Positions 3,991 to 60,772 are shown, numbered from the stretch's first letter. The stretch: DNA of 64,000 bases from Candidatus Parcubacteria bacterium (GCA_027450205.1 DAIDJL010000004.1:11932-75931); one strand, 5' to 3'. Numbers and translations: made by a program. Notes: generated from the letters alone by a model not told the origin.

Positions 3991-4870
3991 ATTTCACAAA
4001 TCGTACATAAATTCCCGACGGCATCACGCGTCCGGAACCTTTTTCGTTCACGCGCAATTCGCCGAATTCGCCGTTCTTGATCTCGCCGAACGAACCTTCC
4101 ATTGCCTGCACCAGTGATTGTGGCGCGTAACCCGCGGCGTAGCCGTTCAGTAAAAAGAACGAACCGGGTTTTTGCGCGAAAATTTTGCGTACGGCATCCA
4201 GCAGGGGAACAATATCCTCTTCAATACGCCACACTTCGCCGTCCGGACCGCGGCCGAATGCGGGCGGGTCGAGGATGATGCCGTCGTATACTGAACCGCG
4301 CCGGATCTCGCGTTGCACGAATTTGAGCGCGTCGTCGGTGATGTAGCGGAGTGTGTCCGGTGGAACTTTCGAGAGCGTCGCATTCTCCTTTGCCCATGTG
4401 TTGCTCTGCTTGGAGGCATCAAGATGGGTGACCATCGCGCCATGCTTTGCGGCAACGATGCTCGCAATGCCGGTGTAGCCGAAGAGATTGAGGATTTTTG
4501 GCGAGCCGCCGCGTTTTGCAAGCGCGCTCACGCGCTCGCCGATCCATTCCCAGTTCGGCGCCTGTTCGGGGAATACGCCGGTGTGCTTGAAGGACGTCAG
4601 CCGCAGGGTGAATCGCGCATCGCTGTGCCACGTGATATCCCACATCTCCGCGCCGCCCTTGTTCATCGAGCGCCAGGATCCCTTTCCGCCATCAAAACGG
4701 AATTCCGCTTTCGCGGTCTTCCATAGTTCCGGATGGAGCGGCTTCCAGATCGCCTGTGTCTCCGGTCGGATCAAAACAAACGGCCCGAACCGCTCCAGTT
4801 TTTTATTGTCGCCGGAGTCGAGAAGCTCGTAATCGGGCCAGCCGTCCGTAGAAAGATCAATTTGCCGCAT
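3989..4870 (-). CDS. Class I SAM-dependent rRNA methyltransferase (RlmI/RlmK-like, PF10672-type)
   Basis: Motifs LNLFGYTGIASIVAA (SAM-binding glycine-rich block) and ILDPPAF (catalytic motif IV). Overall architecture matches YccW/RlmI-like enzymes. Confidence 0.7.
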   Translation of the reverse strand: MRQIDLSTDGWPDYELLDSGDNKKLERFGPFVLIRPETQAIWKPLHPELWKTAKAEFRFDGGKGSWRSMNKGGAEMWDITWHSDARFTLRLTSFKHTGVFPEQAPNWEWIGERVSALAKRGGSPKILNLFGYTGIASIVAAKHGAMVTHLDASKQSNTWAKENATLSKVPPDTLRYITDDALKFVQREIRRGSVYDGIILDPPAFGRGPDGEVWRIEEDIVPLLDAVRKIFAQKPGSFFLLNGYAAGYAPQSLVQAMEGSFGEIKNGEFGELRVNEKGSGRVMPSGIYVRFVK

Positions 4871-5014
4871 AAAAGGATTATATCAGAAATCAAAAAGACC
4901 GTTCTTTCGAACGATCTTTTTGAAAATGGTGCTTGCGGCACCACGCTAGGCTGCCACCTTGATATCCATAGTACTCGGATCTCTATGGACGTCAAGTTTA
5001 AGTTCGTGCCAACG

Positions 5015-5086
5015 TTGACCGGTGGGGAGTCGAACCCCAAACTGCCAGGTGGCAGCCTAGCCGTGATACCGTTTCACCACCGGCCC
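5015..5086 (-). tRNA. tRNA-Gly(GCC)-like gene with aberrant anticodon arm (possible pseudo-tRNA) and structured 3' trailer
   Basis: Minus-strand read GGGCCGG-TG-GTGA-AACGGTA-TCAC ... TGGGG-TTCGACT-CCCCA-CCGGTCA-A gives canonical acceptor, D and T arms. The anticodon stem CTAGG/CCTGG encloses a 6-nt loop CTGCCA containing GCC, one nucleotide short of canonical. No CCA is encoded. Confidence 0.4.
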
Positions 5087-5159
5087 TCTCGGTCGTTGGC
5101 TTTGCCACCATAGCATAGAGGCAATTAAAACTGTCTAAACTCTATGTTTAATAAAAACA

Positions 5160-5996
5160 CTATTTCCCTAATGTGTCGCCGTGTCGCACGCTCCACTGAT
5201 ACAAAACGACCGCGGCGGACACCGACGCGTTCAGCGATTCGGTGCGCGCATGCATCGGGATCCGCAAAGAAATATCGCAACGTTCCATGGTTTTCTGGCG
5301 GATACCTTCGCCTTCGTTGCCCACGATGAAAAGCGCGGGCGCGGCAAATTGTTCGTCCATAATATTCTGTGCGCCGTTCATCACGAGTCCGTAAGTGACG
5401 AAGCCGATCTTTTTAAGCGCGTCCACGGCCTGGTTGACGTTGCCGATCGAGATGAGGGGAATGCGGAATGCCATGCCGGCGGAGGTCTTTACGACCGTGC
5501 CGGTGATCGGCGCCTGGTTATGGACGGGGATCAGCACGCCCGCCGCGCCGAACGCCGCCGCGGAGCGGATGATCGCGCCCACGTTGTGCGGATCGGTAAG
5601 CTCGTCGAGCAGGACGAGCATCGTCTTCTCGGTGGGGCGGAGACTTGCGATGAACTGCTTAAGATCAAGAAGCAGCGATCCTGGGTCGGTGACGGCGATC
5701 ACTCCCTGATGCGCGGTCTCACGGCCGACGACACGGTCTATTTCGCTGGATTTCAACACGCCGGGCGTGAGGCTGGCGTTGCGAAGCAGTGTCCGCAGTT
5801 CGGGATCATTCACTTCTGGCGACAAGAAAACCTTCCGCACTGCGTGCGGCGCATGCGCGAGCGCTTCCATCAGCGCATGTTTGCCGTAGATGTATATCTT
5901 CTCGCGCGAGCCATGCGCGGAATAGTGCGCGCGCGCAGGGTGTTCGCGGCGTGGTGCGCGGCCGGAGTGCGCGCGCGATGGGCGGTGCCTTTTCAT
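5160..5996 (-). CDS. rlmB: TrmH/SpoU-family 23S rRNA 2'-O-methyltransferase (RlmB-like)
   Basis: SpoU motifs LVLLDELTDPHNVGAIIRSAAAFG, FIVGNEGEGI, ESLNASVSAAVVLY. The ATG at 5996 (MKRHRP...) is preferred over the track start at 6071, whose extra N-terminus is Arg-rich junk. Confidence 0.8.
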   Translation of the reverse strand: MKRHRPSRAHSGRAPRREHPARAHYSAHGSREKIYIYGKHALMEALAHAPHAVRKVFLSPEVNDPELRTLLRNASLTPGVLKSSEIDRVVGRETAHQGVIAVTDPGSLLLDLKQFIASLRPTEKTMLVLLDELTDPHNVGAIIRSAAAFGAAGVLIPVHNQAPITGTVVKTSAGMAFRIPLISIGNVNQAVDALKKIGFVTYGLVMNGAQNIMDEQFAAPALFIVGNEGEGIRQKTMERCDISLRIPMHARTESLNASVSAAVVLYQWSVRHGDTLGK

Positions 5997-7457: not shown

Positions 7458-7613
7458 AAAAAATGAACACCACGACGTTCGATAGGAGGTGATCGCGGCT
7501 GCAATCGCCATTTGTCGTATCAGTCCGCGATCGCCTCATGGCGGGTAGTGGTATAGTCATATTCCAAACAATGCGGCACACCAGGAGGGGACGCCTTTTT
7601 CTTTATTTTGCTG

Positions 7614-7698
7614 CGGAGAGGGTGGGATTCGAACCCACGGGCCCTTGCGGGCGGCCGCATTTCAAGTGCGGTGGAATAAACCACTATCCGACCTCTCC
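7614..7698 (-). tRNA. tRNA-Ser(TGA)
   Basis: Acceptor stem GGAGAGG/CCTCTCC. Anticodon stem CCGCA/TGCGG with loop CTTGAAA. Long variable arm. T-arm GTGGG-TTCGAAT-CCCAC. Confidence 0.85.
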
Positions 7699-7711
7699 AT
7701 ATTCAATTTTG

Positions 7712-7782
7712 TGGACCCACGGGGAATCGAACCCCGACCTCCTCCATGCCATGGAGGCGTAATACCATTTTACTATGGGCCC
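7712..7782 (-). tRNA. tRNA-Ala(GGC)
   Basis: Acceptor stem GGGCCCA/TGGGTCC carries the G3:U70 Ala identity pair. Anticodon stem CCTCC/GGAGG with loop ATGGCAT. T-arm CGGGG-TTCGATT-CCCCG. Confidence 0.8.
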
Positions 7783-7862
7783 TTTTTTATGACGATAGCA
7801 ATCCTGCCACTCATTCTATATATATTGCGACCATTGCGTCAATCGTCTATAGTGTTTGCAAA

Positions 7863-7934
7863 GCCCTCGTAGTTCAATGGATAGAACAAATCCGTCCTAA
7901 GGATAAAATGGAAGTTCGATTCTCCCCGAGGGCA
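7863..7934 (+). tRNA. tRNA-Arg(CCT)
   Basis: Perfect acceptor stem GCCCTCG/CGAGGGC. D-arm GTTC-AATGGATA-GAAC. Anticodon loop GTCCTAA. T-loop TTCGATT. Confidence 0.8.
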
Positions 7935-7943
7935 CACCGACAC

Positions 7944-7978
7944 GGCGGAGTTATCCACCGCCGGGCTTTTCTTTTTTT
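7944..7978 (+). terminator. Intrinsic terminator after tRNA-Arg
   Basis: Hairpin GGCGG-AGTTATCCA-CCGCC followed by GGGCTTTTCTTTTTTT. Confidence 0.65.
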
Positions 7979-8492
7979 GGGAGAGTGGTACGGTAAAAGG
8001 AGCTGCTTTCGGTGTCCAACCAGGGATCGGAAGTACATCTTTAAATACCGAGGGTAAAATGGCAACAGTCGTAGTTGCGCTTAGCGGTACCCGGGAGACC
8101 CATATCCCGGGAAATGGCGTTCCTCGCTTATCCCAACCCCAGTTTGTTTGCACGGATCCCCACCTTTCCGGCAGGCTTCTCTCCGATTTCCTGCAGGGCG
8201 TCAATTGCACCCTTTCCGGTCCGCAGAAGATGCGGATGCTGGATCACGCCAAAGTCTGTCCGTCTTGCAATGGCGTGCTGACAAGGAAGTTTGGAAAGAG
8301 GTTTTCCTGGGACAATTAAGGTCGAGTTTTCGGATTTTTTACCCCACCCCCACACCATGGCGTCGTTTTCATTTTTAGGATCCGGCGCCATCACTCTGTT
8401 CGGACCCTTGAAAAGGGTCCGCATTTCTGTAACTATAGAGCGGGGAGGGTTTTTGATTGGCAGGGGTCCAAGGCGCCGCACGCATGCAAAGC

Positions 8493-8579
8493 GGTGAGGT
8501 GGCTGAGTGGTCGAAGGCGCCGCACTCGAAATGCGGTGTACCTGAAAGGGTACCGTGGGTTCGAATCCCACCCTCACCG
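8493..8579 (+). tRNA. tRNA-Ser(CGA)
   Basis: Acceptor stem GGTGAGG/CCTCACC. Anticodon stem CCGCA/TGCGG with loop CTCGAAA. Long variable arm. T-arm GTGGG-TTCGAAT-CCCAC. The acceptor stem is extended by a flanking inverted repeat GCATGCAAAGC / GCTTTGCATGC. Confidence 0.85.
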
Positions 8580-8634
8580 CTTTGCATGTGCAGCCTTCTT
8601 TCTTGGTCCACGGCCGCAGGCGCGGTACAAGATC

Positions 8635-8707
8635 GCCACCTTAGCTCAGCTGGTAGAGCAGTGCTTTCGTAAAGCAAAGGTCCCCGGTTCAAATCCGGGA
8701 GGTGGCT
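8635..8707 (+). tRNA. tRNA-Thr(CGT)
   Basis: Acceptor stem GCCACCT/AGGTGGC. D-arm GCTC-AGCTGGTA-GAGC. Anticodon loop TTCGTAA. T-arm CCCGG-TTCAAAT-CCGGG. Confidence 0.8.
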
Positions 8708-8728
8708 CAGAGGTGGTATAATGGAATC

Positions 8729-39078: not shown

Positions 39079-42000
39079 ATGAGGCAACGATTTCTATCCA
39101 GTCGCATAGCCCATTTTGTTCTGTCTGGAGCCGCCACTTTGCTTGGCGGTTTTCTTTTTCTTCTTCCATCAGCGCAGGCAAGCACCATAAACGTTATAAG
39201 TAATATTACGACGAGTACAACATGGGTTGCGAGTAATGTGTACGTTTTTAATAACAACCTGATCGCAATTCAGTCCGGGGTTACCCTTACCATCGCAAGC
39301 GGTACTGTTGTGAAATTTAACGGCACATCTTCAGGATTGACGGTTGACGGTACATTGCAAGCTAATGGCGCAGCCGGAAATCAAATTTATTTTACTTCCG
39401 TTAATGACAATTCAGTGGGTGGGACTATTAGTGGATCGACAGGGAGTCCGGCCGCTGGTAATTGGGCCGATATCGGGATTGCTTCAGGGGGTATCGCAAA
39501 TATAACCGACGCAGTGGTTCGCTATGGGGGATCTTCAAGCGGGGGGTCTGCGGATATCAATCAGTCCGGCGGGGTGCTTACTGTTTCAAGCACGCAAATA
39601 GCGACAAGTACGTTATATGGTTTGTATATATCTGCCGGAACCAGTACGGTTGAAACGAGCACGTTTACCACAAATGGTTTTTATGGATTCTATGAGACCG
39701 GCTCTGCCTCGCTCACTCTCACGAGCAGCACGTTTTCTCAAAACGACTTCACGGGTTATGTTAATTTTGGAAGCGGCGCTACGTTTATCCCTTCTGGAAA
39801 TTCCGCTTCTGAAAATATTACCGAAAACGGTTATGACATTTTAGGAACCCTTACCAAAAACGAGACATTATATGATGACGGTGTTCCTTATGTCATTGGC
39901 TATAACAATGGCGTTGGGGTCACTATTGCACCAGGGACGTCTCTGACTATCAATCCCGGTACGATTATAAAATTTCTTAAAGTCAGCTCCGCTGCTTATA
40001 TTGATGTAAAAGGCATCCTCAATGTTCAAGGAACATTAACCAACCCAGTATATTTTACCTCGATCAAAGACAACTCTGTTGATTCTGGGACGGGGGGGAG
40101 CACTACATCCACCCCGGGCTTGGGCGATTGGGGAAGTATTGAAATTGATCCCGGGGCAAGTACAACGATTATGAATGCTATCATTCGTTATGGTGGTGCT
40201 ACAGGGTCTGCATATTACAATTCTGCCGATATCGACATAGCGGGAGGCGTTTCATCACTCTCTTCTGTAACGGTGGCATCGAGTAGTAATTATGGTATTC
40301 AATCCACCGCTGGAACGATAACTATTTCAAGTAGCACCATCAGTAGTAATGGGGCATCGGGAATCTACGCATATAGCTCATCCGGCACTATTAATATTTC
40401 GAGTAGCACTTTCGCTAATAACGGTGTTGATGCGGCATTGATTAATTTTACGAGCGCCGTTACCTTTGTTCCTTTAGGGAATACTGCGTCAGGTAATGGC
40501 GAGAATGGGTATGATATCCGCGGGACGTTAAGCACGAACGAGACTTTATACAATGACGGCATTCCTTACGTTATTGGCTATAACAATAATGATGGTGTCA
40601 CTGTTGCCTCAGGGACCACACTTACCATCAGTAGTGGAACGGTCATAAAGTTCTTGCATCAGACTACGGCGTCGTTTCTGGATATAAAGGGACGCTTAAA
40701 TGTTCAGGGAACACCAACCAACAAAGTTTATTTTACCTCAATTAAGGACAACTCAATCGATCCCGGTACTGGCGGGAGCACTACGTCTACTCCAGGTCCT
40801 GGCGATTGGGGACGTATTGAAATTGATTCTGGTGCAAGCACAACAATCAACAATGCTTTCATTGGGTACGGCGGCTATTCCTTGACTCCCGCGACCGATA
40901 TTTACCAAGCGGGAGGTGTTTCAACTATCATTAATTCGCAGATCGCTGATAGTTTAGATGATGGCATCAATATAAACGGAGGAACATCGACTATTACACT
41001 CTCCGAATTTAATGGCAATGGGCATGGTGGAATTTATATGAATGGCGGGATGATCACGATTTCAACAAGCAGCATCCAGGGAAACGTCACTTACGGAATG
41101 TACAACGGTGATAATGTTACTTCCACCGCCATTGCCGAAAATAATTGGTGGGGATCAACAACTGGCCCGACGAATGCCGCGAATCCTGGAGGCACAGGCG
41201 ATGTGGCGTCATCATATGTTGATTTTAATAACTGGCTCAATTATTCTCCGGTAAACGGAACTACAACTTTAAGTAATCTTATGCAGTATAAATCGGATGC
41301 GACAACAACGCTTAGCGAGGGGAGCTCTACCACCGAATCAATTATAGTGTTCGGTGCAAAACTGCAATCATTAGCTACAAGTACAGAAAGCCTTCAAGTG
41401 GAAGTTGAACCAGTGGGTACTATGTTTACCAATACCGTTACCGTATCCAGCACTTATGTGGTTCCCGGAAGCAATGCGACGGCAACATTCCCACTTGTGG
41501 ATACTCGCGAGATCAGCGGAAATGGAAGCTATCATTGGCAGGCGAGGGTAACTGATCAATTGGGAGATACTTCCGGATGGCAATTGTTTGGGCCGAACTC
41601 AAGCTCTACTGATTTCAAAATTAGTGCGGTGCCACTTTATACACAGGTCACGTCGACCTACCCTTCGCCTTCTGCAACTACGGGGACTGTCTGGTGGGCA
41701 CCTCAATTATTAGATGGTATCGCCACAAATACTATCGCCGGCTTCGGCTGCTTAATTACATCTGTGACGATGGACCTTCGATCGTATGGGATAACAACCA
41801 CTACAATGCAAAGTTATATGAGTAGTACCGATGTTAATCCTGCGAACTTAAATGATTGGCTTGAGATGGCAAATAGTTCTGGTACGGGTTATTTCCCGGC
41901 GGGAAGTGGTCTTATGAATTGGCAGGACATCCCTTACTATTCCGAAACTCCATCAGGCACGTTTAGAGTTTGGTATAACGTTACTACCGATCATATATCT

Positions 42001-42633
42001 TCACCTTCAAGCACATGGGTTAATAAATGGCTTGATTATACTTCAACGGGAACGGTGCCAGTAATTTTAACCGAAGGAAATATTTCCGGTGTGACTCATT
42101 TTGTAGTGGCAACGGGATTCGCTAATAACAATAATACTTCGACCTATACCTTACGCGATCCATTCTTTTATAACACTCAATATTTGAATCAAGCATCATC
42201 AACAGCAAATCATATTTATGGATATGCCAATACCTATGCGAGTGCAAATATTCTCGAGCCGACTTCTACCGCTGTTTTGCCTCTTTACCTCGAATATACT
42301 ATTGATAGCATGCACACACTTTTGATCACTGATCCGAATGGAAATAAACTTGGCATAAATTTAGGCACCGGCGTTGAATATAATCAGATACCAGATGCAG
42401 CAGAGGACGATAGTCAGCCGGGCGTTCGTTTTCTTACTATTTACCATCCAATAGATGGAAATTATACGTTAAGTATTGGAGGGTCTGGGAAATATGAGTT
42501 ATCAAGTTTCGTAGCTGATGGGAAGCATATGCCTATTCCGCAGATAATTTCATCAACTACACCATCTTCGGCCGCTGCGATATATCATCAAGATTATAAT
42601 TCTTTGAATCTTTCAGCTAGCACAGTCCAGTAA
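39079..42633 (+). CDS. Giant secreted beta-helix repeat protein (1184 aa) with three tandem ~200-aa modules and a C-terminal Cys/His/Asp-containing domain
   Basis: Signal peptide ...FLFLLPSAQAS. Three near-identical modules each contain GT(V/I)IKFL, YFTSIKDNS, GDWG.IEI, IRYGG and ENGYDI.GTL..NETLY.DG.PYVIGYNN. A Thr/Ser-rich tail carries GFGCLIT ... GVTHFVVATGF ... TLRDP, suggesting a papain-like triad. The GC content is markedly low for this window. Confidence 0.7.
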   Translation: MRQRFLSSRIAHFVLSGAATLLGGFLFLLPSAQASTINVISNITTSTTWVASNVYVFNNNLIAIQSGVTLTIASGTVVKFNGTSSGLTVDGTLQANGAAGNQIYFTSVNDNSVGGTISGSTGSPAAGNWADIGIASGGIANITDAVVRYGGSSSGGSADINQSGGVLTVSSTQIATSTLYGLYISAGTSTVETSTFTTNGFYGFYETGSASLTLTSSTFSQNDFTGYVNFGSGATFIPSGNSASENITENGYDILGTLTKNETLYDDGVPYVIGYNNGVGVTIAPGTSLTINPGTIIKFLKVSSAAYIDVKGILNVQGTLTNPVYFTSIKDNSVDSGTGGSTTSTPGLGDWGSIEIDPGASTTIMNAIIRYGGATGSAYYNSADIDIAGGVSSLSSVTVASSSNYGIQSTAGTITISSSTISSNGASGIYAYSSSGTINISSSTFANNGVDAALINFTSAVTFVPLGNTASGNGENGYDIRGTLSTNETLYNDGIPYVIGYNNNDGVTVASGTTLTISSGTVIKFLHQTTASFLDIKGRLNVQGTPTNKVYFTSIKDNSIDPGTGGSTTSTPGPGDWGRIEIDSGASTTINNAFIGYGGYSLTPATDIYQAGGVSTIINSQIADSLDDGININGGTSTITLSEFNGNGHGGIYMNGGMITISTSSIQGNVTYGMYNGDNVTSTAIAENNWWGSTTGPTNAANPGGTGDVASSYVDFNNWLNYSPVNGTTTLSNLMQYKSDATTTLSEGSSTTESIIVFGAKLQSLATSTESLQVEVEPVGTMFTNTVTVSSTYVVPGSNATATFPLVDTREISGNGSYHWQARVTDQLGDTSGWQLFGPNSSSTDFKISAVPLYTQVTSTYPSPSATTGTVWWAPQLLDGIATNTIAGFGCLITSVTMDLRSYGITTTTMQSYMSSTDVNPANLNDWLEMANSSGTGYFPAGSGLMNWQDIPYYSETPSGTFRVWYNVTTDHISSPSSTWVNKWLDYTSTGTVPVILTEGNISGVTHFVVATGFANNNNTSTYTLRDPFFYNTQYLNQASSTANHIYGYANTYASANILEPTSTAVLPLYLEYTIDSMHTLLITDPNGNKLGINLGTGVEYNQIPDAAEDDSQPGVRFLTIYHPIDGNYTLSIGGSGKYELSSFVADGKHMPIPQIISSTTPSSAAAIYHQDYNSLNLSASTVQ

Positions 42634-42637
42634 TAAT

Positions 42638-43330
42638 ATGAATAAAAAAGGTTCAATAAATATCGCACTTATTATTCTCGTCGTTTTGCTAATAGTTGGC
42701 GCTATTTGGTATTATGAAGCAAATAAGGAGAGTGCATTTCAAATGTCACTTTCTCACGATACTATTACGACAACCTCGATTCAAACAACTGCGGCAAGTT
42801 CAACCGTACCCCCGAGTACTTCATGGTTAGCATCCATAAAGCGGACAAGTCCGGAGGTGGTGCCCGTGCCCAGTTCAGTTTTAATTTCTGAAAAAATTCG
42901 AGGTAAGTTTGCTTTCATCCAAGGAGGAGATGTTTGGGTTGCTGACCAAGATGGAAACAGTCAATTACAACTAACTCATGCGGGTAGTGAGGGGGAGGTG
43001 AGAGATTTCACTTTTTCTCCTAATTTTCAATATCTTGAATATCACATCCCGTGGTTTGGAGCTTACGCTCGTGGAACAATTAATATTCTTGATTTGAATA
43101 CTAATAAAGTAGTTTTTCAAGTCAATGGATTGACTCTTTATCAGTTCGGTACATTTAAATCAATGTTAGGATCTCAAACGCCATACGTAGCTTTCGATAG
43201 TTGGATTAATAATAACCAATTCATTTATGACGCTTGGGGGCTGGATGGTCCCGGTGGCGGAGCAAATGAATATGGAAAGTTACTCGTTGATTTACAAAAC
43301 GGAACGACTACGGTGATACAACCTCAATAG
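42638..43330 (+). CDS. Membrane-anchored hypothetical protein (230 aa), beta-rich
   Basis: N-terminal TM IALIILVVLLIVGAIWYY. Same low GC as the upstream giant gene, and probably co-transcribed with it. Confidence 0.5.
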   Translation: MNKKGSINIALIILVVLLIVGAIWYYEANKESAFQMSLSHDTITTTSIQTTAASSTVPPSTSWLASIKRTSPEVVPVPSSVLISEKIRGKFAFIQGGDVWVADQDGNSQLQLTHAGSEGEVRDFTFSPNFQYLEYHIPWFGAYARGTINILDLNTNKVVFQVNGLTLYQFGTFKSMLGSQTPYVAFDSWINNNQFIYDAWGLDGPGGGANEYGKLLVDLQNGTTTVIQPQ

Positions 43331-43395
43331 GATCTAATGAAACATTTTCGACTTAGGAAATTTTCCTTTGTCGATTTTTCTGCTATAATCTCCCT

Positions 43396-44172
43396 ATGGT
43401 GGATTTCTCGCATTTAACGAAGGCCTATAAAAAGAAGGTGGTCGTGGACGATTTTACGCTTTCCGTGGATGTGCCGATCTTCGGTTTTTTGGGACAGAAC
43501 GGGGCGGGGAAGACGACGATCATGAAGATGATCGTAGGATTGCTCCAGCCCACAAGCGGCACGATAACGATCGACGGGGCGCTCTCGTCGCATCCTATTT
43601 TTAAAAAGAAGCTGGGGTACATGCCGGAGACGCCGTACTTTTACGAGCGCATGACCGGCATGGAATTTTTGCGTTTCTGCGACGAACTTTTTGATAACAC
43701 GAACAGCGGCGCCGATCCGGCGGCACGAACATCGCACTACGAGGAAATTTTAAAGAAGGTGGGTATCTTTGCCGCGCGCAACGCGGAGATCCGCACGTAT
43801 TCCAAGGGTATGCGCCAGCGCCTCGGCTTCGCGCAGTCGCTCGTGAACGATCCGGAATATTTATTTTTAGATGAGCCGCTTGACGGCCTTGATCCGATCG
43901 GCCGGCGGGAAATGAAAGAGGTGATGCTCGCGCTCAAGCACGAGGGCCGGAAGATATTTTTGAATACGCATATCCTCGCCGACGTGGAGGAGATCTGCGA
44001 TGAGGTGGGGATCGTGCACAAAGGAAGATTATTGTACGCCGGCAGCGTGAAGGCGTTCTGCGCGGGCAAGCCGCTCGAAGAGCGGTTCATGGAAGCGGTT
44101 GCGGAACACGAATCGATCGCGCTCAATGCCGTGCCGGCGCACGAGATACCTGCGGGCCATCATCAAAAATAG
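43396..44172 (+). CDS. ABC transporter ATP-binding protein
   Basis: Walker A GQNGAGKTT, Q-loop, signature-like YSKGMRQRL and Walker B LFLDEPLDGLD. Confidence 0.85.
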   Translation: MVDFSHLTKAYKKKVVVDDFTLSVDVPIFGFLGQNGAGKTTIMKMIVGLLQPTSGTITIDGALSSHPIFKKKLGYMPETPYFYERMTGMEFLRFCDELFDNTNSGADPAARTSHYEEILKKVGIFAARNAEIRTYSKGMRQRLGFAQSLVNDPEYLFLDEPLDGLDPIGRREMKEVMLALKHEGRKIFLNTHILADVEEICDEVGIVHKGRLLYAGSVKAFCAGKPLEERFMEAVAEHESIALNAVPAHEIPAGHHQK

Positions 44173-44173
44173 C

Positions 44174-44938
44174 ATGAGAAATATCTTTATCATCGCAAAA
44201 AATACGTTGAAGCTGGAGATCCGTGACAAGATCCTGTACGGCATCATCGTATTCGGCCTGCTCTATGTATTTTTTACGCTTTTTCTTGCCGATCTGGTCT
44301 TAAAGGAGCCAACCATGGTGAAAGCCTTCGGGCTTACCGGAATCTACTTTTTCAACGCCATCATTGCGCTGTTTCTCGGCACGACATCGTTCTTTAAGGA
44401 TGTCGATCGCAAGGTGGTCTATTTCATCCTTTCAAAGCCGGTGTCGCGCGCGCAATTCCTGCTGGGCAAGTTCTTCGGGCTCTGCATGGTGCTTTTGCTT
44501 ACGAGCGGCATCCTTGCCGTGGCGTACGAGGGCGTGGTGACCTATAAGCTGGGGATGTTCGACGGGATCGGGCTCGTGGCCGTCGCGATGCAATTCCTCG
44601 AGATGGCGCTCTTTCTCGCGTTCGCGATATTCGTTTCCACATTCGCGAGCTCGCTGCTCTCCATCGTATATACCTCCGGCGTGTTCTTTCTCGGCCATAT
44701 CGTGAGCCAGCTCGTGATCGATGCGAAGGCGATTGGCATAAGCGGCATCCGGTTATGGCTGGTGGAGATCCTCTATTATGTATTCCCGAACCTGGAGAAG
44801 TTCGACGCGCGCGATTTTGCGATCCACGCGGTCGCCGTGCCGTGGGCTTCGTTCAGTCTGGCCGTTGCATATGCCGCCGCATATATCATTTTTCTCCTTG
44901 CCGCCGCAGTGTGGATCTTCAATAAAAAAGAAATTTAG
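44174..44938 (+). CDS. ABC-2 family transporter permease
   Basis: Six predicted TM helices. Its start overlaps the stop of the ATPase gene. Confidence 0.7.
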   Translation: MRNIFIIAKNTLKLEIRDKILYGIIVFGLLYVFFTLFLADLVLKEPTMVKAFGLTGIYFFNAIIALFLGTTSFFKDVDRKVVYFILSKPVSRAQFLLGKFFGLCMVLLLTSGILAVAYEGVVTYKLGMFDGIGLVAVAMQFLEMALFLAFAIFVSTFASSLLSIVYTSGVFFLGHIVSQLVIDAKAIGISGIRLWLVEILYYVFPNLEKFDARDFAIHAVAVPWASFSLAVAYAAAYIIFLLAAAVWIFNKKEI

Positions 44939-48987: not shown

Positions 48988-49629
48988 TTAATTCTGACTT
49001 AAGGGGATTGCGACCTCCTCGAGTAATGACGCCTTCTTCATGCCGTCTTCTTTTCCATACCAAAAGACGGTCACGCTTGAAACGGTTATATCCTTACTTT
49101 CGATCGCTTTGAGATTTCTTTGAGACTCCGCGATATCGGCCTGTGGCTTATCAAAATCAATTTCGCCGAGCGTGATATGCGGATCGAACACTTCTTCTGG
49201 AACATGATATGCCTGCAAACTTTGGCGGCTACCGTCAGTGTGAATTCCTTGGCTTTCCAATCTCTTTTGGATTTTTTCAGATATGAATGGGCTGCGATAA
49301 GGAATGGCCAGCGCTGATACTATATCGTGCAGTTTCTGCAACTGTTGCTTATTGGAGACATCCATAATGTAAAGATTCCGATGTCGATCATTCTCGACTC
49401 TTATTTTCGGCGCAAGAAGTGAAACGGTAAATGGTTTTATAGAAAGTCCGCGAAGTTTTTCTAATAGCTTTGGATATCCATCAGATGTATAGCTATCGAG
49501 ATAGAGCGTAATATGCGGCTCCGACTTATAACTACTTCCATACTCGGAAATAAAACGCTGCTTCTCCTGCCAAAGCACATTTGTAATGTTATCCGGGAAA
49601 GTTATACGAATGCTGATATCGTATCTCAT
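48988..49629 (-). CDS. 2H-phosphoesterase superfamily protein (LigT/2'-5' RNA ligase-like)
   Basis: Two H-x-T-x motifs (EPHITLYL and DPHITLGE) at the expected spacing. Confidence 0.6.
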   Translation of the reverse strand: MRYDISIRITFPDNITNVLWQEKQRFISEYGSSYKSEPHITLYLDSYTSDGYPKLLEKLRGLSIKPFTVSLLAPKIRVENDRHRNLYIMDVSNKQQLQKLHDIVSALAIPYRSPFISEKIQKRLESQGIHTDGSRQSLQAYHVPEEVFDPHITLGEIDFDKPQADIAESQRNLKAIESKDITVSSVTVFWYGKEDGMKKASLLEEVAIPLSQN

Positions 49630-60694: not shown

Positions 60695-60768
60695 GCCCCT
60701 ATAGCTCAGTCTGGTAGAGCAGCTCCCTTTTAAGGAGATGGTCCCAGGTTCAAATCCTGGTGGGGGCA
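60695..60768 (+). tRNA. tRNA-Lys(TTT)
   Basis: Acceptor stem GCCCCTA/TGGGGGC. D-arm GCTC-AGTCTGGTA-GAGC. Canonical Lys anticodon loop CTTTTAA. T-arm CCAGG-TTCAAAT-CCTGG. Confidence 0.85.
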
Positions 60769-60772
60769 CAGA

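What the first reader, a model, noticed from the sequence alone, without database searches (positions are those of the whole stretch)
4921..5110. tRNA-Gly-like element with a one-nucleotide-short anticodon loop, a 13-bp inverted repeat that competes with the anticodon arm, and a hairpin-rich 3' trailer
On the minus strand, the acceptor, D and T arms are textbook tRNA. The anticodon stem CTAGG/CCTGG, however, closes a 6-nt loop (CTGCCA, containing GCC), not the canonical 7. The 13-nt segment CTAGGCTGCCACC covering that stem-loop has a perfect reverse complement GGTGGCAGCCTAG about 90 nt downstream. Two more short hairpins and a terminator-like GGTGC-TTGC-GCACC hairpin fill the trailer. This could be a decaying pseudo-tRNA, a tRNA whose maturation involves an alternative long-range pairing, an unusual frameshift-suppressor-like tRNA, or a single-base assembly error.
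Basis: seen in the sequence. Interest (0 to 1): 0.55.

Follow-up and report, generated by a model that had tools for sequence, protein, structure and literature searches.

The report
tRNA-Ala mimic with its own antisense RNA
The odd "tRNA-Gly" is one half of a conserved two-part RNA module of Paceibacteria (candidate phyla radiation): an alanine-type tRNA look-alike with a non-standard anticodon arm, followed by a small RNA gene whose 5' end base-pairs with that arm. No such pair turned up in Rfam or the searched papers.

Summary
On the minus strand, 5086-5015 folds as a cloverleaf with a 6-bp anticodon stem and a 6-nt loop. A perfect 15-nt complement (23 bp with G-U pairs) lies 87 nt downstream.

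About 30 related loci from other Paceibacteria assemblies carry the same module. The anticodon-arm sequence differs between them and the downstream segment changes in step: 97.6% of cells paired, 12 of 23 pairs changed on both sides. Non-Watson-Crick pairs in the core are almost all G-U on the tRNA-sense strand, so selection acts on RNA.

It is not tRNA-Gly. G3:U70 occurs in 27 of 27 intact acceptors and A73 in 26 of 27, which is the alanine identity set. The closest real tRNA in the window is tRNA-Ala(GGC).

A near-consensus promoter (TTGACN, 16 nt, TAnnAT), at constant spacing in every member that keeps the downstream half, places a transcription start 7-8 nt before the complementary segment. 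That predicts a separate ~75-nt RNA made of seed, hairpin and terminator.

Best reading: a dedicated antisense RNA that opens the anticodon and D arms of an alanine-accepting, non-decoding tRNA mimic. The cellular function is unknown.

The parts
5124..5139 (-). Conserved 16-nt block TTTAGACAGTTTTAAT upstream of the tRNA-like gene, in the -35/upstream region of promoter P1. It could be a regulator site.
   Evidence: Conserved in nearly all members, including distant ones. In the window it is the only match with fewer than 3 mismatches. Its role is inferred.
5107..5115 (-). P1 extended -10 box, TGCTATGGT (pattern TGnTAnnnT). The predicted start falls about 7 nt downstream, at the leader helix strand.
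   Evidence: The pattern TGnTAnnnT recurs at the same place in members whose surrounding sequence differs. Promoter activity is inferred, not measured.
5094..5100 (-). Leader strand GCCAACG, which pairs with the trailer strand at 5014-5008.
   Evidence: A 6-8 bp leader/trailer duplex is present in nearly all intact members, at -10 to -14 kcal/mol against -4 to -8 for shuffles. It covaries to GGTCAGTG/CATTGACC and GGTCAATG/CATTGGCC.
5015..5086 (-). tRNA-Ala-like RNA, 72 nt. Acceptor stem 5086-5080/5022-5016 (G1.A72, G2-C71, G3.U70). D arm 5077-5063. Anticodon stem 5061-5056/5049-5044. 6-nt loop CTGCCA 5055-5050. T arm 5039-5023. A73 at 5015. No CCA is encoded.
   Evidence: ARAGORN, Rfam; cloverleaf 93.3% paired and G3.U70 in 17 of 17. 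G3.U70 in 27 of 27 intact acceptors and A73 in 26 of 27; the closest real tRNA in the window is tRNA-Ala(GGC).
5047..5070 (-). Target segment inside the tRNA-like RNA: end of the D loop, the 3' strand of the D stem, G26 (bulged), the 5' strand of the anticodon stem, the loop, and the first 3 nt of the 3' strand.
5008..5014 (-). Trailer strand CGTTGGC, partner of the leader strand.
4968..4995 (-). Internal promoter P2: -35 TTGACG (4995-4990), 16-nt spacer, -10 TACTAT (4973-4968). In this subfamily it also forms a hairpin with 4958-4971.
   Evidence: scan. TTGACN-16-TA[CT][TA]AT at identical spacing in all 27 sequences that keep the downstream half, including perfect TTGACA-16-TATAAT in the distant members L087, L121, L154 and L174; the hairpin is present only in the window subfamily.
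4886..4960 (-). Predicted small antisense RNA, about 75 nt: 5' seed, hairpin, intrinsic terminator.
   Evidence: The start is inferred from P2, since the seed begins 7-8 nt after the -10 box in every member. Fold (z = -5.6). No Rfam family matches, even at E up to 10.
4937..4959 (-). Seed. The core is 15 nt, AGGTGGCAGCCTAGC (4959-4945). A further 8 nt, GTGGTGCC (4944-4937), pair with the D arm through G-U pairs.
   Evidence: 23-bp helix, 97.6% of cells paired, 12 pairs changed on both sides, slid controls 31-51%; cognate duplex -32 kcal/mol against -19 for non-cognate pairs; 17 G.U against 4 A.C in total, and one A.C inside the strict 15-nt core.
4926..4944 (-). Small RNA hairpin GTGGTGC-CGCAA-GCACCAT, a diverged reverse complement of the D arm.
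   Evidence: Compensatory variants such as GGATGC-TAAA-GCATCC in L017. Homology to the D arm is read directly from the sequence.
4880..4923 (-). Intrinsic terminator: 15-bp stem (4923-4890) plus a T run. It ends both the P1 and the P2 transcripts.
   Evidence: It is the only terminator-like site between the tRNA-like gene and the next gene.

Best explanation
The locus is a self-contained pair of RNA genes found in Paceibacteria.

Gene 1, driven by promoter P1, makes an L-shaped tRNA mimic derived from tRNA-Ala(GGC). It keeps everything needed for recognition by alanyl-tRNA synthetase and other tRNA-handling proteins: G3:U70, G2-C71, A73, G18G19 and the T loop. Its anticodon arm is 18-19 nt instead of 17, has no fixed anticodon and lacks a conserved U33. 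It therefore cannot act as a normal decoder.

Gene 2 is driven by a strong sigma-70-type promoter, P2, that sits in the trailer of gene 1. It makes a roughly 75-nt RNA whose extreme 5' end is complementary to the mimic's anticodon arm.

Proposed pairing sequence: contact starts between the free 5' seed and the G+C-rich 6-nt loop. It then spreads down the 5' side of the anticodon stem and into the D arm, giving 15-23 bp. This is the same 5'-end-to-loop geometry as IS10 RNA-IN/RNA-OUT. The result is to replace the cloverleaf with a heteroduplex, which removes the L-shape and creates a long duplex that RNase III could cut.

The small RNA is therefore a dedicated antagonist, an 'anti-tRNA', that sets how much folded, alanine-chargeable mimic exists. 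Because no terminator separates the two genes, P1 read-through also carries the antisense segment in cis.

Shown: the two mutually exclusive pairings are both under selection; selection acts on RNA of the tRNA-sense strand; the alanine identity elements are conserved; the promoter geometry is conserved.

Inferred: the two separate transcripts; charging with alanine; the antagonistic outcome; what the mimic does once folded.
For: - Family: about 30 loci, 26 distinct full modules, from independent genome and metagenome assemblies.
- Antisense helix: 97.6% paired, 12 of 23 pairs changed on both sides, none of 500 shuffles reaches the observed value, slid controls 31-51%.
- Anticodon stem on the same columns: 93.8% paired, 4 of 6 pairs covary.
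- Non-Watson-Crick pairs in the helix: 17 G.U against 4 A.C on the tRNA-sense strand, with one A.C inside the strict 15-nt core. The D-arm extension contains fixed U.G pairs.
- Duplex energy: cognate -32 kcal/mol against -19 for non-cognate pairs. The cognate partner usually ranks first.
- Predicted heterodimer: -88.4 kcal/mol, against -63 to -70 for the two RNAs folded separately.
- P2: invariant 16-nt spacing, with the seed 7-8 nt after the -10 box, in all 27 sequences that keep the downstream half. Four distant members have a perfect consensus.
- L004 and L007 keep P2, the small RNA and the terminator although the tRNA-like gene is deleted.
- Identity: G3.U70 in 27 of 27 and A73 in 26 of 27, while acceptor pairs 5-7 covary. 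Alanine identity set from PMC9976931.
- The module occurs in at least three unrelated gene contexts, so it does not regulate a particular neighbouring gene.
Against: - There is no transcript evidence. Both starts, both 3' ends and any processing are predictions.
- P1 transcripts must read through the antisense segment, so an intramolecular role cannot be separated from a trans role.
- The window subfamily has a G1.A72 mismatch, and the leader pairs with the trailer. Either feature could hinder RNase P cleavage or charging.
- The energy model ignores tRNA tertiary structure and base modifications, so the predicted preference for the heteroduplex may be overstated.
- Two loci (L148, L190) keep the tRNA-like gene without a detectable small RNA within the sequence held, so the small RNA is not strictly indispensable.
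- The near-invariant GCCA in the loop suggests a further, unidentified partner.
Confidence: 0.5

Rival explanations
1. One cis-acting structured RNA. The whole stretch from P1 to the terminator (about 215 nt) is a single functional transcript. The antisense segment folds back on the anticodon arm, which would form a pseudoknot with the acceptor stem. It would act as a built-in switch or an RNase III processing site that governs maturation or decay of the tRNA-like part. P2 would be secondary or not used.
For: There is no terminator between the tRNA-like gene and the antisense segment. The full-region fold has z = -7.6 with the long helix formed. The P2 region also forms a hairpin with some compensatory changes in the window subfamily. 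A leader/trailer helix points to a structured precursor.
Against: The promoter hexamers and their spacing are conserved where the hairpin is not (L005, L017, L154). The seed always begins 7-8 nt after the -10 box. L004 and L007 retain a promoter-plus-small-RNA unit without any tRNA-like part.
Confidence: 0.25
2. Two-piece ribonucleoprotein. The duplex itself is the functional unit and the variable helix is only a connector, as in two-piece tmRNA. An alanine-charged acceptor/T domain would be joined to a second RNA, for example for a ribosome-rescue or non-ribosomal alanine-transfer role.
For: Alanine identity as in tmRNA. Rapid neutral-looking covariation in the helix is what a connector helix would show. 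The T arm stays folded in the predicted dimer.
Against: The small RNA holds nothing beyond seed, hairpin and terminator. There is no conserved reading frame or tag. ARAGORN reports no tmRNA. The anticodon stem, which competes with the duplex, is itself conserved by covariation, so the free cloverleaf matters too.
Confidence: 0.1
3. The tRNA-like RNA does decode: a mistranslating or frameshifting alanine tRNA (GCC reading Gly codons, or doublet decoding by the 6-nt loop).
For: Alanine identity is independent of the anticodon. Four members have a canonical 17-nt arm. ARAGORN assigns ordinary anticodons to several members: gtc, ttc, tac, cac, cga.
Against: 25 of 29 distinct sequences have an 18- or 19-nt arm. 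The U33 position is U, C or A, and no anticodon is conserved even between close relatives.
Confidence: 0.07
4. A DNA-level inverted repeat: an invertible promoter switch, a recombination site, or a quasi-palindrome kept perfect by template switching.
For: The repeat arms flank a promoter. Template switching can create matched changes without selection (general knowledge).
Against: Mismatches are strand-asymmetric: 17 G.U against 4 A.C, and fixed U.G pairs that would be A.C on the other strand. No member among about 30 has the inner segment inverted. No recombinase gene lies within 5 kb. The arms sit inside a conserved tRNA fold.
Confidence: 0.03
5. A decaying tRNA pseudogene or a one-base assembly error.
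For: Low Rfam score of 35.8 bits. A G1.A72 mismatch.
Against: The same geometry appears in many independent assemblies. The complementary seed has the matching length. The cloverleaf is 93% paired with covariation.
Confidence: 0.02

Closest known systems
tmRNA tRNA-like domain (SsrA)
   Same: A non-decoding RNA with a tRNA-Ala acceptor (G3:U70, A73) and a T arm. It is presumably recognised by AlaRS and other tRNA enzymes.
   Different: tmRNA has no anticodon arm, carries a tag reading frame and pseudoknots, and works with SmpB. Here there is a complete cloverleaf, no reading frame, and a separate antisense partner. ARAGORN finds no tmRNA.
Antisense RNA pairs that start at a 5' end and a hairpin loop (IS10 RNA-IN/RNA-OUT; CopA/CopT; hok/Sok type I toxin-antitoxin)
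   Same: A single-stranded 5' seed meets a G+C-rich loop and pairing spreads along one side of the stem. The antisense RNA has a strong promoter. The duplex is long enough for RNase III.
   Different: Those pairs are encoded on opposite strands of the same DNA, so their complementarity is automatic, and the target is an mRNA. Here the partners are separate, non-overlapping genes on the same strand. Complementarity is kept by selection, as the G-U pairs show. The target is a tRNA mimic with no reading frame.
T-box riboswitch
   Same: An RNA element that reads a tRNA by base-pairing with its anticodon loop.
   Different: A T-box pairs with 3-4 nt of a genuine tRNA, also reads its 3' end, and switches a terminator in an mRNA leader. 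Here 15-23 nt of a dedicated mimic are paired, no alternative to the terminator exists, downstream genes vary, and Rfam finds no T-box.
Bacterial Y RNA YrlA and other tRNA mimics (mascRNA, viral tRNA-like structures)
   Same: A non-coding RNA that copies the tRNA L-shape in order to borrow tRNA-binding proteins.
   Different: YrlA closes the 'acceptor' end and opens at the 'anticodon' end into a Ro-binding stem, and it lies near rsr. Here the ends are at the acceptor, no rsr is nearby, and no Rfam match is found.
3' external transcribed spacer of glyW-cysT-leuZ (a tRNA-precursor-derived sponge for small RNAs)
   Same: An RNA released from a tRNA transcription unit pairs with a small RNA.
   Different: There the spacer sponges small RNAs that have many mRNA targets. 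Here the tRNA-like body itself is the paired partner, and the interface changes too fast for shared mRNA targets. No second target site with 3 or fewer mismatches exists in the 64-kb window.
Non-proteinogenic tRNAs used outside the ribosome (e.g. Staphylococcus tRNA-Gly for cell-wall bridges)
   Same: An extra tRNA paralogue that may be charged but is not used for decoding.
   Different: Those keep a normal anticodon arm and have no antisense partner. No FemX- or MurM-type gene is linked here.

Membership tests
Canonical decoding tRNA | Cloverleaf with conserved D- and T-loop tertiary bases | tested here: met
   Rfam tRNA 35.8 bits against a cut-off of 29. G18G19 and TTCGA are present. Cloverleaf 93.3% paired.
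Canonical decoding tRNA | 5-bp anticodon stem with a 7-nt loop, U33, and an anticodon conserved among orthologues | tested here: not met
   The arm is 18 nt in 20, 19 nt in 5 and 17 nt in 4 of 29 distinct sequences. The base before 'GCC' is U, C or A. Loops differ between close relatives.
tRNA-Gly(GCC) | Bacterial glycine identity: U73, G1-C72, C2-G71, G3-C70, C35, C36 (PMC9976931) | tested here: not met
   The element has A73, G1.A72, G2-C71 and G3.U70. Only the CC in the loop fits.
tRNA-Ala identity (AlaRS substrate) | G3.U70, A73, G2-C71 (PMC9976931) | tested here: met
   G3.U70 in 27 of 27 intact acceptors, A73 in 26 of 27, and G2-C71 in 17 of 17 in the alignment (L134, outside that alignment, has A2), while pairs 5-7 covary. 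Pair 4:69 is C-G, as in the window's own tRNA-Ala(GGC).
tRNA-Ala identity (AlaRS substrate) | Actual aminoacylation with alanine | not testable with these tools
   Needs a charging assay. The G1.A72 mismatch in half of the members has an unknown effect.
tmRNA | tRNA-like domain without an anticodon arm, plus a tag reading frame and pseudoknots | tested here: not met
   ARAGORN reports no tmRNA. The cloverleaf is complete and no reading frame is conserved in the partner RNA.
T-box riboswitch | Stem I specifier loop, T-box sequence, and an antiterminator that competes with a terminator upstream of a regulated gene | tested here: not met
   No Rfam T-box hit at E up to 10. The terminator has no competing structure. 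Downstream genes differ or are convergent.
Type I toxin-antitoxin (hok/Sok-like) | A small toxic-peptide reading frame whose mRNA is bound by an antisense RNA | tested here: not met
   The target is a tRNA-like RNA. Overlapping ORFs (4733-5113 on +, 4771-5040 on -) are not supported, because the substitutions are compensatory for RNA pairs.
Antisense small-RNA/target pair (general kind) | Extended complementarity between two transcripts, maintained in evolution | tested here: met
Antisense small-RNA/target pair (general kind) | An independent transcript for the antisense partner | tested here: inconclusive
   Promoter geometry is conserved in all 27 sequences that keep the downstream half, and orphan small-RNA units exist. 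There are no expression data.
Invertible DNA switch | Inverted repeats flanking a promoter, a nearby invertase, and both orientations found | tested here: not met
   One orientation in about 30 loci. No recombinase within 5 kb. Mismatches are strand-asymmetric.
Y RNA / YrlA | Ro-binding stem formed by the 5' and 3' ends, a tRNA-like module, and linkage to rsr | tested here: not met
   No Rfam hit. No rsr-like neighbour.

The most novel reading that the evidence does not exclude
A protein-free, two-gene RNA system specific to candidate-phyla-radiation bacteria. An alanine-accepting tRNA mimic could be harmful or potent if free: it might mistranslate, jam ribosomes, or feed a non-ribosomal or rescue pathway. 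Its own co-evolving antisense RNA would hold it in check. That would be a new class of RNA-RNA 'toxin-antitoxin-like' or 'anti-tRNA' regulation.

A further twist is not excluded. The nearly invariant loop bases UGCCA are the exact complement of the anticodon loop of the genuine tRNA-Ala(GGC). The mimic might therefore bind that tRNA, with the small RNA competing for the same loop.
Probability: 0.25. Interest if true: 0.9.

Novelty: new variant of a known kind. Interest (0 to 1): 0.72.

Why it matters
Candidate-phyla-radiation bacteria make up a large share of bacterial diversity, and almost nothing is known about their regulatory RNAs. This module is compact and recognisable from sequence. Its pairing interface is written into the genome, so partner specificity can be predicted and re-engineered.

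If the mimic is charged with alanine, it would be a third kind of alanine-tRNA look-alike, after tRNA-Ala and tmRNA, and the first with a dedicated RNA antagonist. That would open testable questions about regulated mistranslation, ribosome rescue, or non-ribosomal use of aminoacyl-tRNA in organisms with minimal genomes.

There is also a practical consequence. tRNA finders label these genes 'tRNA-???', Val, Asp, Glu or Ser, which distorts tRNA inventories and genetic-code inferences for these genomes.

Tried and rejected
- Phage record search with the whole element: no match.
- Viral-contig scan with the D-arm/T-arm pattern: 10 hits, all ordinary tRNAs with no downstream complement longer than 8 nt.
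- Rfam at a permissive threshold on 4850-5250: only the tRNA model and chance-level hits.
- Seven literature searches (one of the eight calls failed on term syntax) on tRNA-like RNAs in CPR/Patescibacteria/Parcubacteria, short anticodon loops, antisense-plus-tRNA-like, structured RNAs in CPR, and G3:U70 mistranslation: nothing describing this module.
- RNAalifold on leader + tRNA + trailer: it gave a rod-like mis-pairing of the D and T arms, so I scored the cloverleaf explicitly instead.
- A second target for the seed in the window: none with 3 or fewer mismatches.
- Cis-regulation of the downstream methyltransferase: rejected. That gene has its own TGATATAAT box, which is also present in loci without the module. 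In other genomes the module faces a convergent ybeY or unrelated genes.
- A Shine-Dalgarno/anti-Shine-Dalgarno resemblance (AGGTGG/CCACCT): considered and dropped, because it is not conserved (L003, L032, L156).
- A tag-peptide reading frame in the small RNA: not conserved.
- Diversifying selection on the interface: not claimed. FtsA-linked loci at 90-95% protein identity differ at about 4 of 15 interface positions, which fits neutral compensatory drift.

Full report
**What is in the window.** On the minus strand, between a SpoU/TrmH-family methyltransferase gene (6071-5160) and a PF10672 SAM-methyltransferase gene (4870-3989), ARAGORN reports a 'tRNA-???' with a two-base anticodon, meaning a 6-nt loop. 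Rfam's tRNA model scores 35.8 bits against a cut-off of 29, with one loop position deleted.

The sequence read gives these parts:
- acceptor stem 5086-5080/5022-5016
- D arm 5077-5063
- a 6-bp anticodon stem, GCTAGG/CCTGGC (5061-5056/5049-5044)
- the loop CTGCCA (5055-5050)
- T arm 5039-5023
- A73 at 5015

The inverted repeat is 15 nt perfect (5061-5047 against 4959-4945) with 87 nt between the arms. The longest repeat in 300 dinucleotide-preserving shuffles was 11 nt. With G-U pairs and one bulge it extends into the D arm to 23 bp. Its coordinates miss the terminator (4923-4890) and the upstream promoter region.

**Source organism and relatives.** The TrmH protein retrieves 79 loci, all but one from Paceibacterota/Parcubacteria (candidate phyla radiation) assemblies. 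Directly after the TrmH stop codon, L003, L005, L006, L017 and L032 carry the same element. ARAGORN calls it '???', Ser(cga) or Val(tac), so the 'anticodon' is not conserved. Many other relatives lack the element cleanly (L001, L002, L008 and others). None has a normal tRNA-Gly there.

A metagenome scan with a D-arm/T-arm pattern, followed by nhmmer, raised the family to about 30 loci and 26 distinct full modules. The same pattern found only ordinary tRNAs in viral contigs.

**The long-range pairing is selected at the RNA level.** Between members the anticodon-arm sequence differs, for example GCTAGGCTGCCACCT in the window against GTCAGATCGCCATCT in L003. The downstream segment changes in step.

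On a 16-sequence alignment:
- The 23-bp helix is 97.6% paired.
- Twelve pairs changed on both sides (53 cells).
- None of 500 shuffles reaches the observed values.
- Slid controls give 31-51% pairing.

Cognate duplexes average -32 kcal/mol against -19 for non-cognate combinations. Non-Watson-Crick pairs total 17 G-U against 4 A-C when read on the tRNA-sense strand, with a single A-C inside the strict 15-nt core. The D-arm extension contains fixed U-G pairs. On the opposite strand, or in DNA, these would be mismatches. That argues against an invertible DNA switch or a quasi-palindrome kept by template switching.

The 6-bp anticodon stem, which uses the same nucleotides, is also conserved by covariation: 93.8% paired, 4 of 6 pairs with double changes (again). 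Two mutually exclusive structures are therefore both under selection.

**Not glycine, not a decoder, not an artefact.** The anticodon arm is 18 nt in 20, 19 nt in 5 and the canonical 17 nt in only 4 of 29 distinct sequences. The base in the U33 position is U, C or A. The matching length of the complementary seed in every member rules out a one-base assembly error.

The body is strongly conserved and the cloverleaf is 93.3% paired. G3.U70 is present in 27 of 27 intact acceptors and A73 in 26 of 27. G2-C71 holds in all 17 aligned sequences (L134, outside that alignment, has A2). Acceptor pairs 5-7 covary. This is the bacterial alanine identity set, and it contradicts the glycine set of U73, C2-G71 and G3-C70 (PMC9976931). 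The most similar real tRNA in the window is tRNA-Ala(GGC) at 7711-7782, which shares the GGGCC...GGTCCA acceptor, the D loop and the T arm. Many of the pattern hits in metagenomes were also tRNA-Ala(GGC). I infer that the element descends from tRNA-Ala(GGC).

**A second gene inside the 'trailer'.** Every sequence that keeps the downstream half has TTGACN, 16 nt, TA[CT][TA]AT between the tRNA-like part and the complementary segment. The distant members L087, L121, L154 and L174 have a perfect TTGACA-16-TATAAT. The complementary segment always begins 7-8 nt after the -10 box.

The predicted RNA (about 4960-4886) has a largely single-stranded 5' seed, a 7-bp hairpin (4944-4926) and a 15-bp intrinsic terminator. 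In the window subfamily the hairpin is a diverged reverse complement of the D arm. That suggests the gene arose by inverted duplication of the 5' half of the tRNA-like gene (read from the sequence).

L004 and L007 retain exactly this unit of promoter, small RNA and terminator although the tRNA-like gene is gone.

Upstream of the tRNA-like gene there is an extended -10 box (TGnTAnnnT, 5115-5107), preceded by a conserved 16-nt block (5139-5124). A leader strand (5100-5094) pairs with a trailer strand (5014-5008), and this helix covaries in other subfamilies. No terminator separates the two genes, so transcripts from the first promoter also contain the antisense segment.

**Context and dynamics.** The module occurs in at least three kinds of location:
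- between TrmH and the methyltransferase
- between a divergent ftsA and a convergent ybeY
- in other, unrelated places

No neighbouring protein gene is shared across contexts, so it is an autonomous RNA unit rather than a leader of a particular gene.

L087 holds two modules in tandem. Their interfaces differ at 4-5 positions, and cross-pairing is 6-12 kcal/mol weaker than cognate pairing.

Broken copies exist:
- L015 lacks the 5' half of the tRNA-like gene.
- L182 and L191 lack its 3' acceptor strand.
- L148 and L190 keep the tRNA-like gene but have a serine recombinase gene or a transposase-like gene immediately after it, and no small RNA in the DNA held.

**Mechanism proposed.** The small RNA's free 5' end meets the G+C-rich loop of the mimic. 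Pairing spreads along the 5' side of the anticodon stem and into the D arm. The predicted heterodimer (-88.4 kcal/mol) is 18-25 kcal/mol more stable than the separate folds. The L-shape is lost, and a 15-23-bp duplex forms that RNase III could cut.

I therefore read the small RNA as a dedicated antagonist of an alanine-accepting, non-decoding tRNA mimic. The pairing, its selection at the RNA level, the alanine identity elements and the promoter geometry are shown. The separate transcripts, the charging, the outcome of pairing and the role of the folded mimic are inferred.

Candidate roles, none tested:
- a harmful mistranslating or ribosome-jamming RNA kept in check
- a donor of alanine outside normal decoding
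- a decoy for tRNA-binding proteins

**Comparison with known systems.** The module works most like antisense pairs that start between a 5' end and a loop (IS10 RNA-IN/RNA-OUT, CopA/CopT, hok/Sok). Unlike them, the partners are separate genes on the same strand and the target is not an mRNA. It shares alanine identity and non-decoding status with the tRNA-like domain of tmRNA, but it has a full cloverleaf and no tag. It fails the defining features of a T-box, YrlA, a type I toxin-antitoxin, an invertible switch, and tRNA-Gly (membership table).

Rfam has no family for the small RNA, and seven full-text searches found no description of the module. I rate it a new variant of a known kind: an antisense RNA pair whose target is a tRNA mimic. 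There is a real chance that it is a new class once its function is known.

**Unexplained.**
- The loop bases GCCA are almost invariant in the window subfamily although the stem drifts. UGCCA is the exact complement of the anticodon loop of the genuine tRNA-Ala(GGC). Other subfamilies carry GACA, GUCAA, UUCAA, ACCA or AACA at the same place.
- Half of the members have G1.A72.
- The 16-nt block upstream of the first promoter is more conserved than a -35 region needs to be.

Noticed in passing
L087:820-1790 (minus strand): Two complete modules (tRNA-like plus small RNA) lie in tandem about 725 nt apart, separated by a small DUF167-like gene. Their pairing interfaces differ at 4-5 positions. Cross-pairing is predicted to be 6-12 kcal/mol weaker than cognate pairing.
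   Followed up: partly
L148 (tRNA-like at 4255-4327, minus) and L190 (262-334, plus): The tRNA-like gene is intact, but the trailer helix (in L148) and the small RNA gene are missing. A large serine recombinase gene (L148) or a transposase/integrase-like ORF (L190) starts or ends right at its 3' side. Mobile elements may be using the mimic as an attachment site, as they do real tRNA genes.
   Followed up: partly
window 4868-4885 (minus strand): An extended -10 box, TGATATAAT (4885-4877), lies only 6 nt before the ATG (4870) of the PF10672 methyltransferase, so the mRNA may be leaderless. The same box precedes the orthologous gene in loci without the module (L009, L012, L013).
   Followed up: no
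window 5050-5054 and 7711-7782: The loop bases UGCCA of the mimic are the exact complement of U33-G34-G35-C36-A37 of the genuine tRNA-Ala(GGC) 2.6 kb away. GCCA is nearly invariant in this subfamily while the surrounding stem covaries.
   Followed up: partly
L004:3898-4030 and L007:3814-3946: Orphan small-RNA units (promoter, seed, hairpin, terminator) abut the TrmH stop codon, with the tRNA-like gene deleted at the same junction in both genomes. Their seeds match the interface of full modules found in the ftsA/ybeY context (L003, L177). A partner may therefore exist elsewhere in those genomes.
   Followed up: no
window 7613-8708 and 60695-60769: None of the six real tRNA genes encodes the 3' CCA. 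The cluster Ser(TGA)-Ala(GGC) / Arg(CCT)-Ser(CGA)-Thr(CGT) keeps its order in many related genomes (L003, L004, L006, L008, L015, L032).
   Followed up: no
window 39079-44938: A low-GC stretch (0.43-0.45, against about 0.55 elsewhere) holds a 1184-aa protein with right-handed beta-helix repeats, a 230-aa ORF with no Pfam match, and an ABC transporter pair. It may be a horizontally acquired surface-protein island.
   Followed up: partly
window 48988-49629 (minus strand): A 2H-phosphoesterase / 2'-5' RNA ligase (LigT-like) gene lies next to recR and dnaB. This is an RNA-end-healing enzyme in a genome that also carries the tRNA-mimic module. No link was tested.
   Followed up: no
L134:9220-9291: This member has A2.C71 in the acceptor stem and a mismatch in the trailer helix. 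Its interface is identical to that of L130, from the same sample but in a different gene context. It could be a second, decaying copy in one genome, or strain variation.
   Followed up: no
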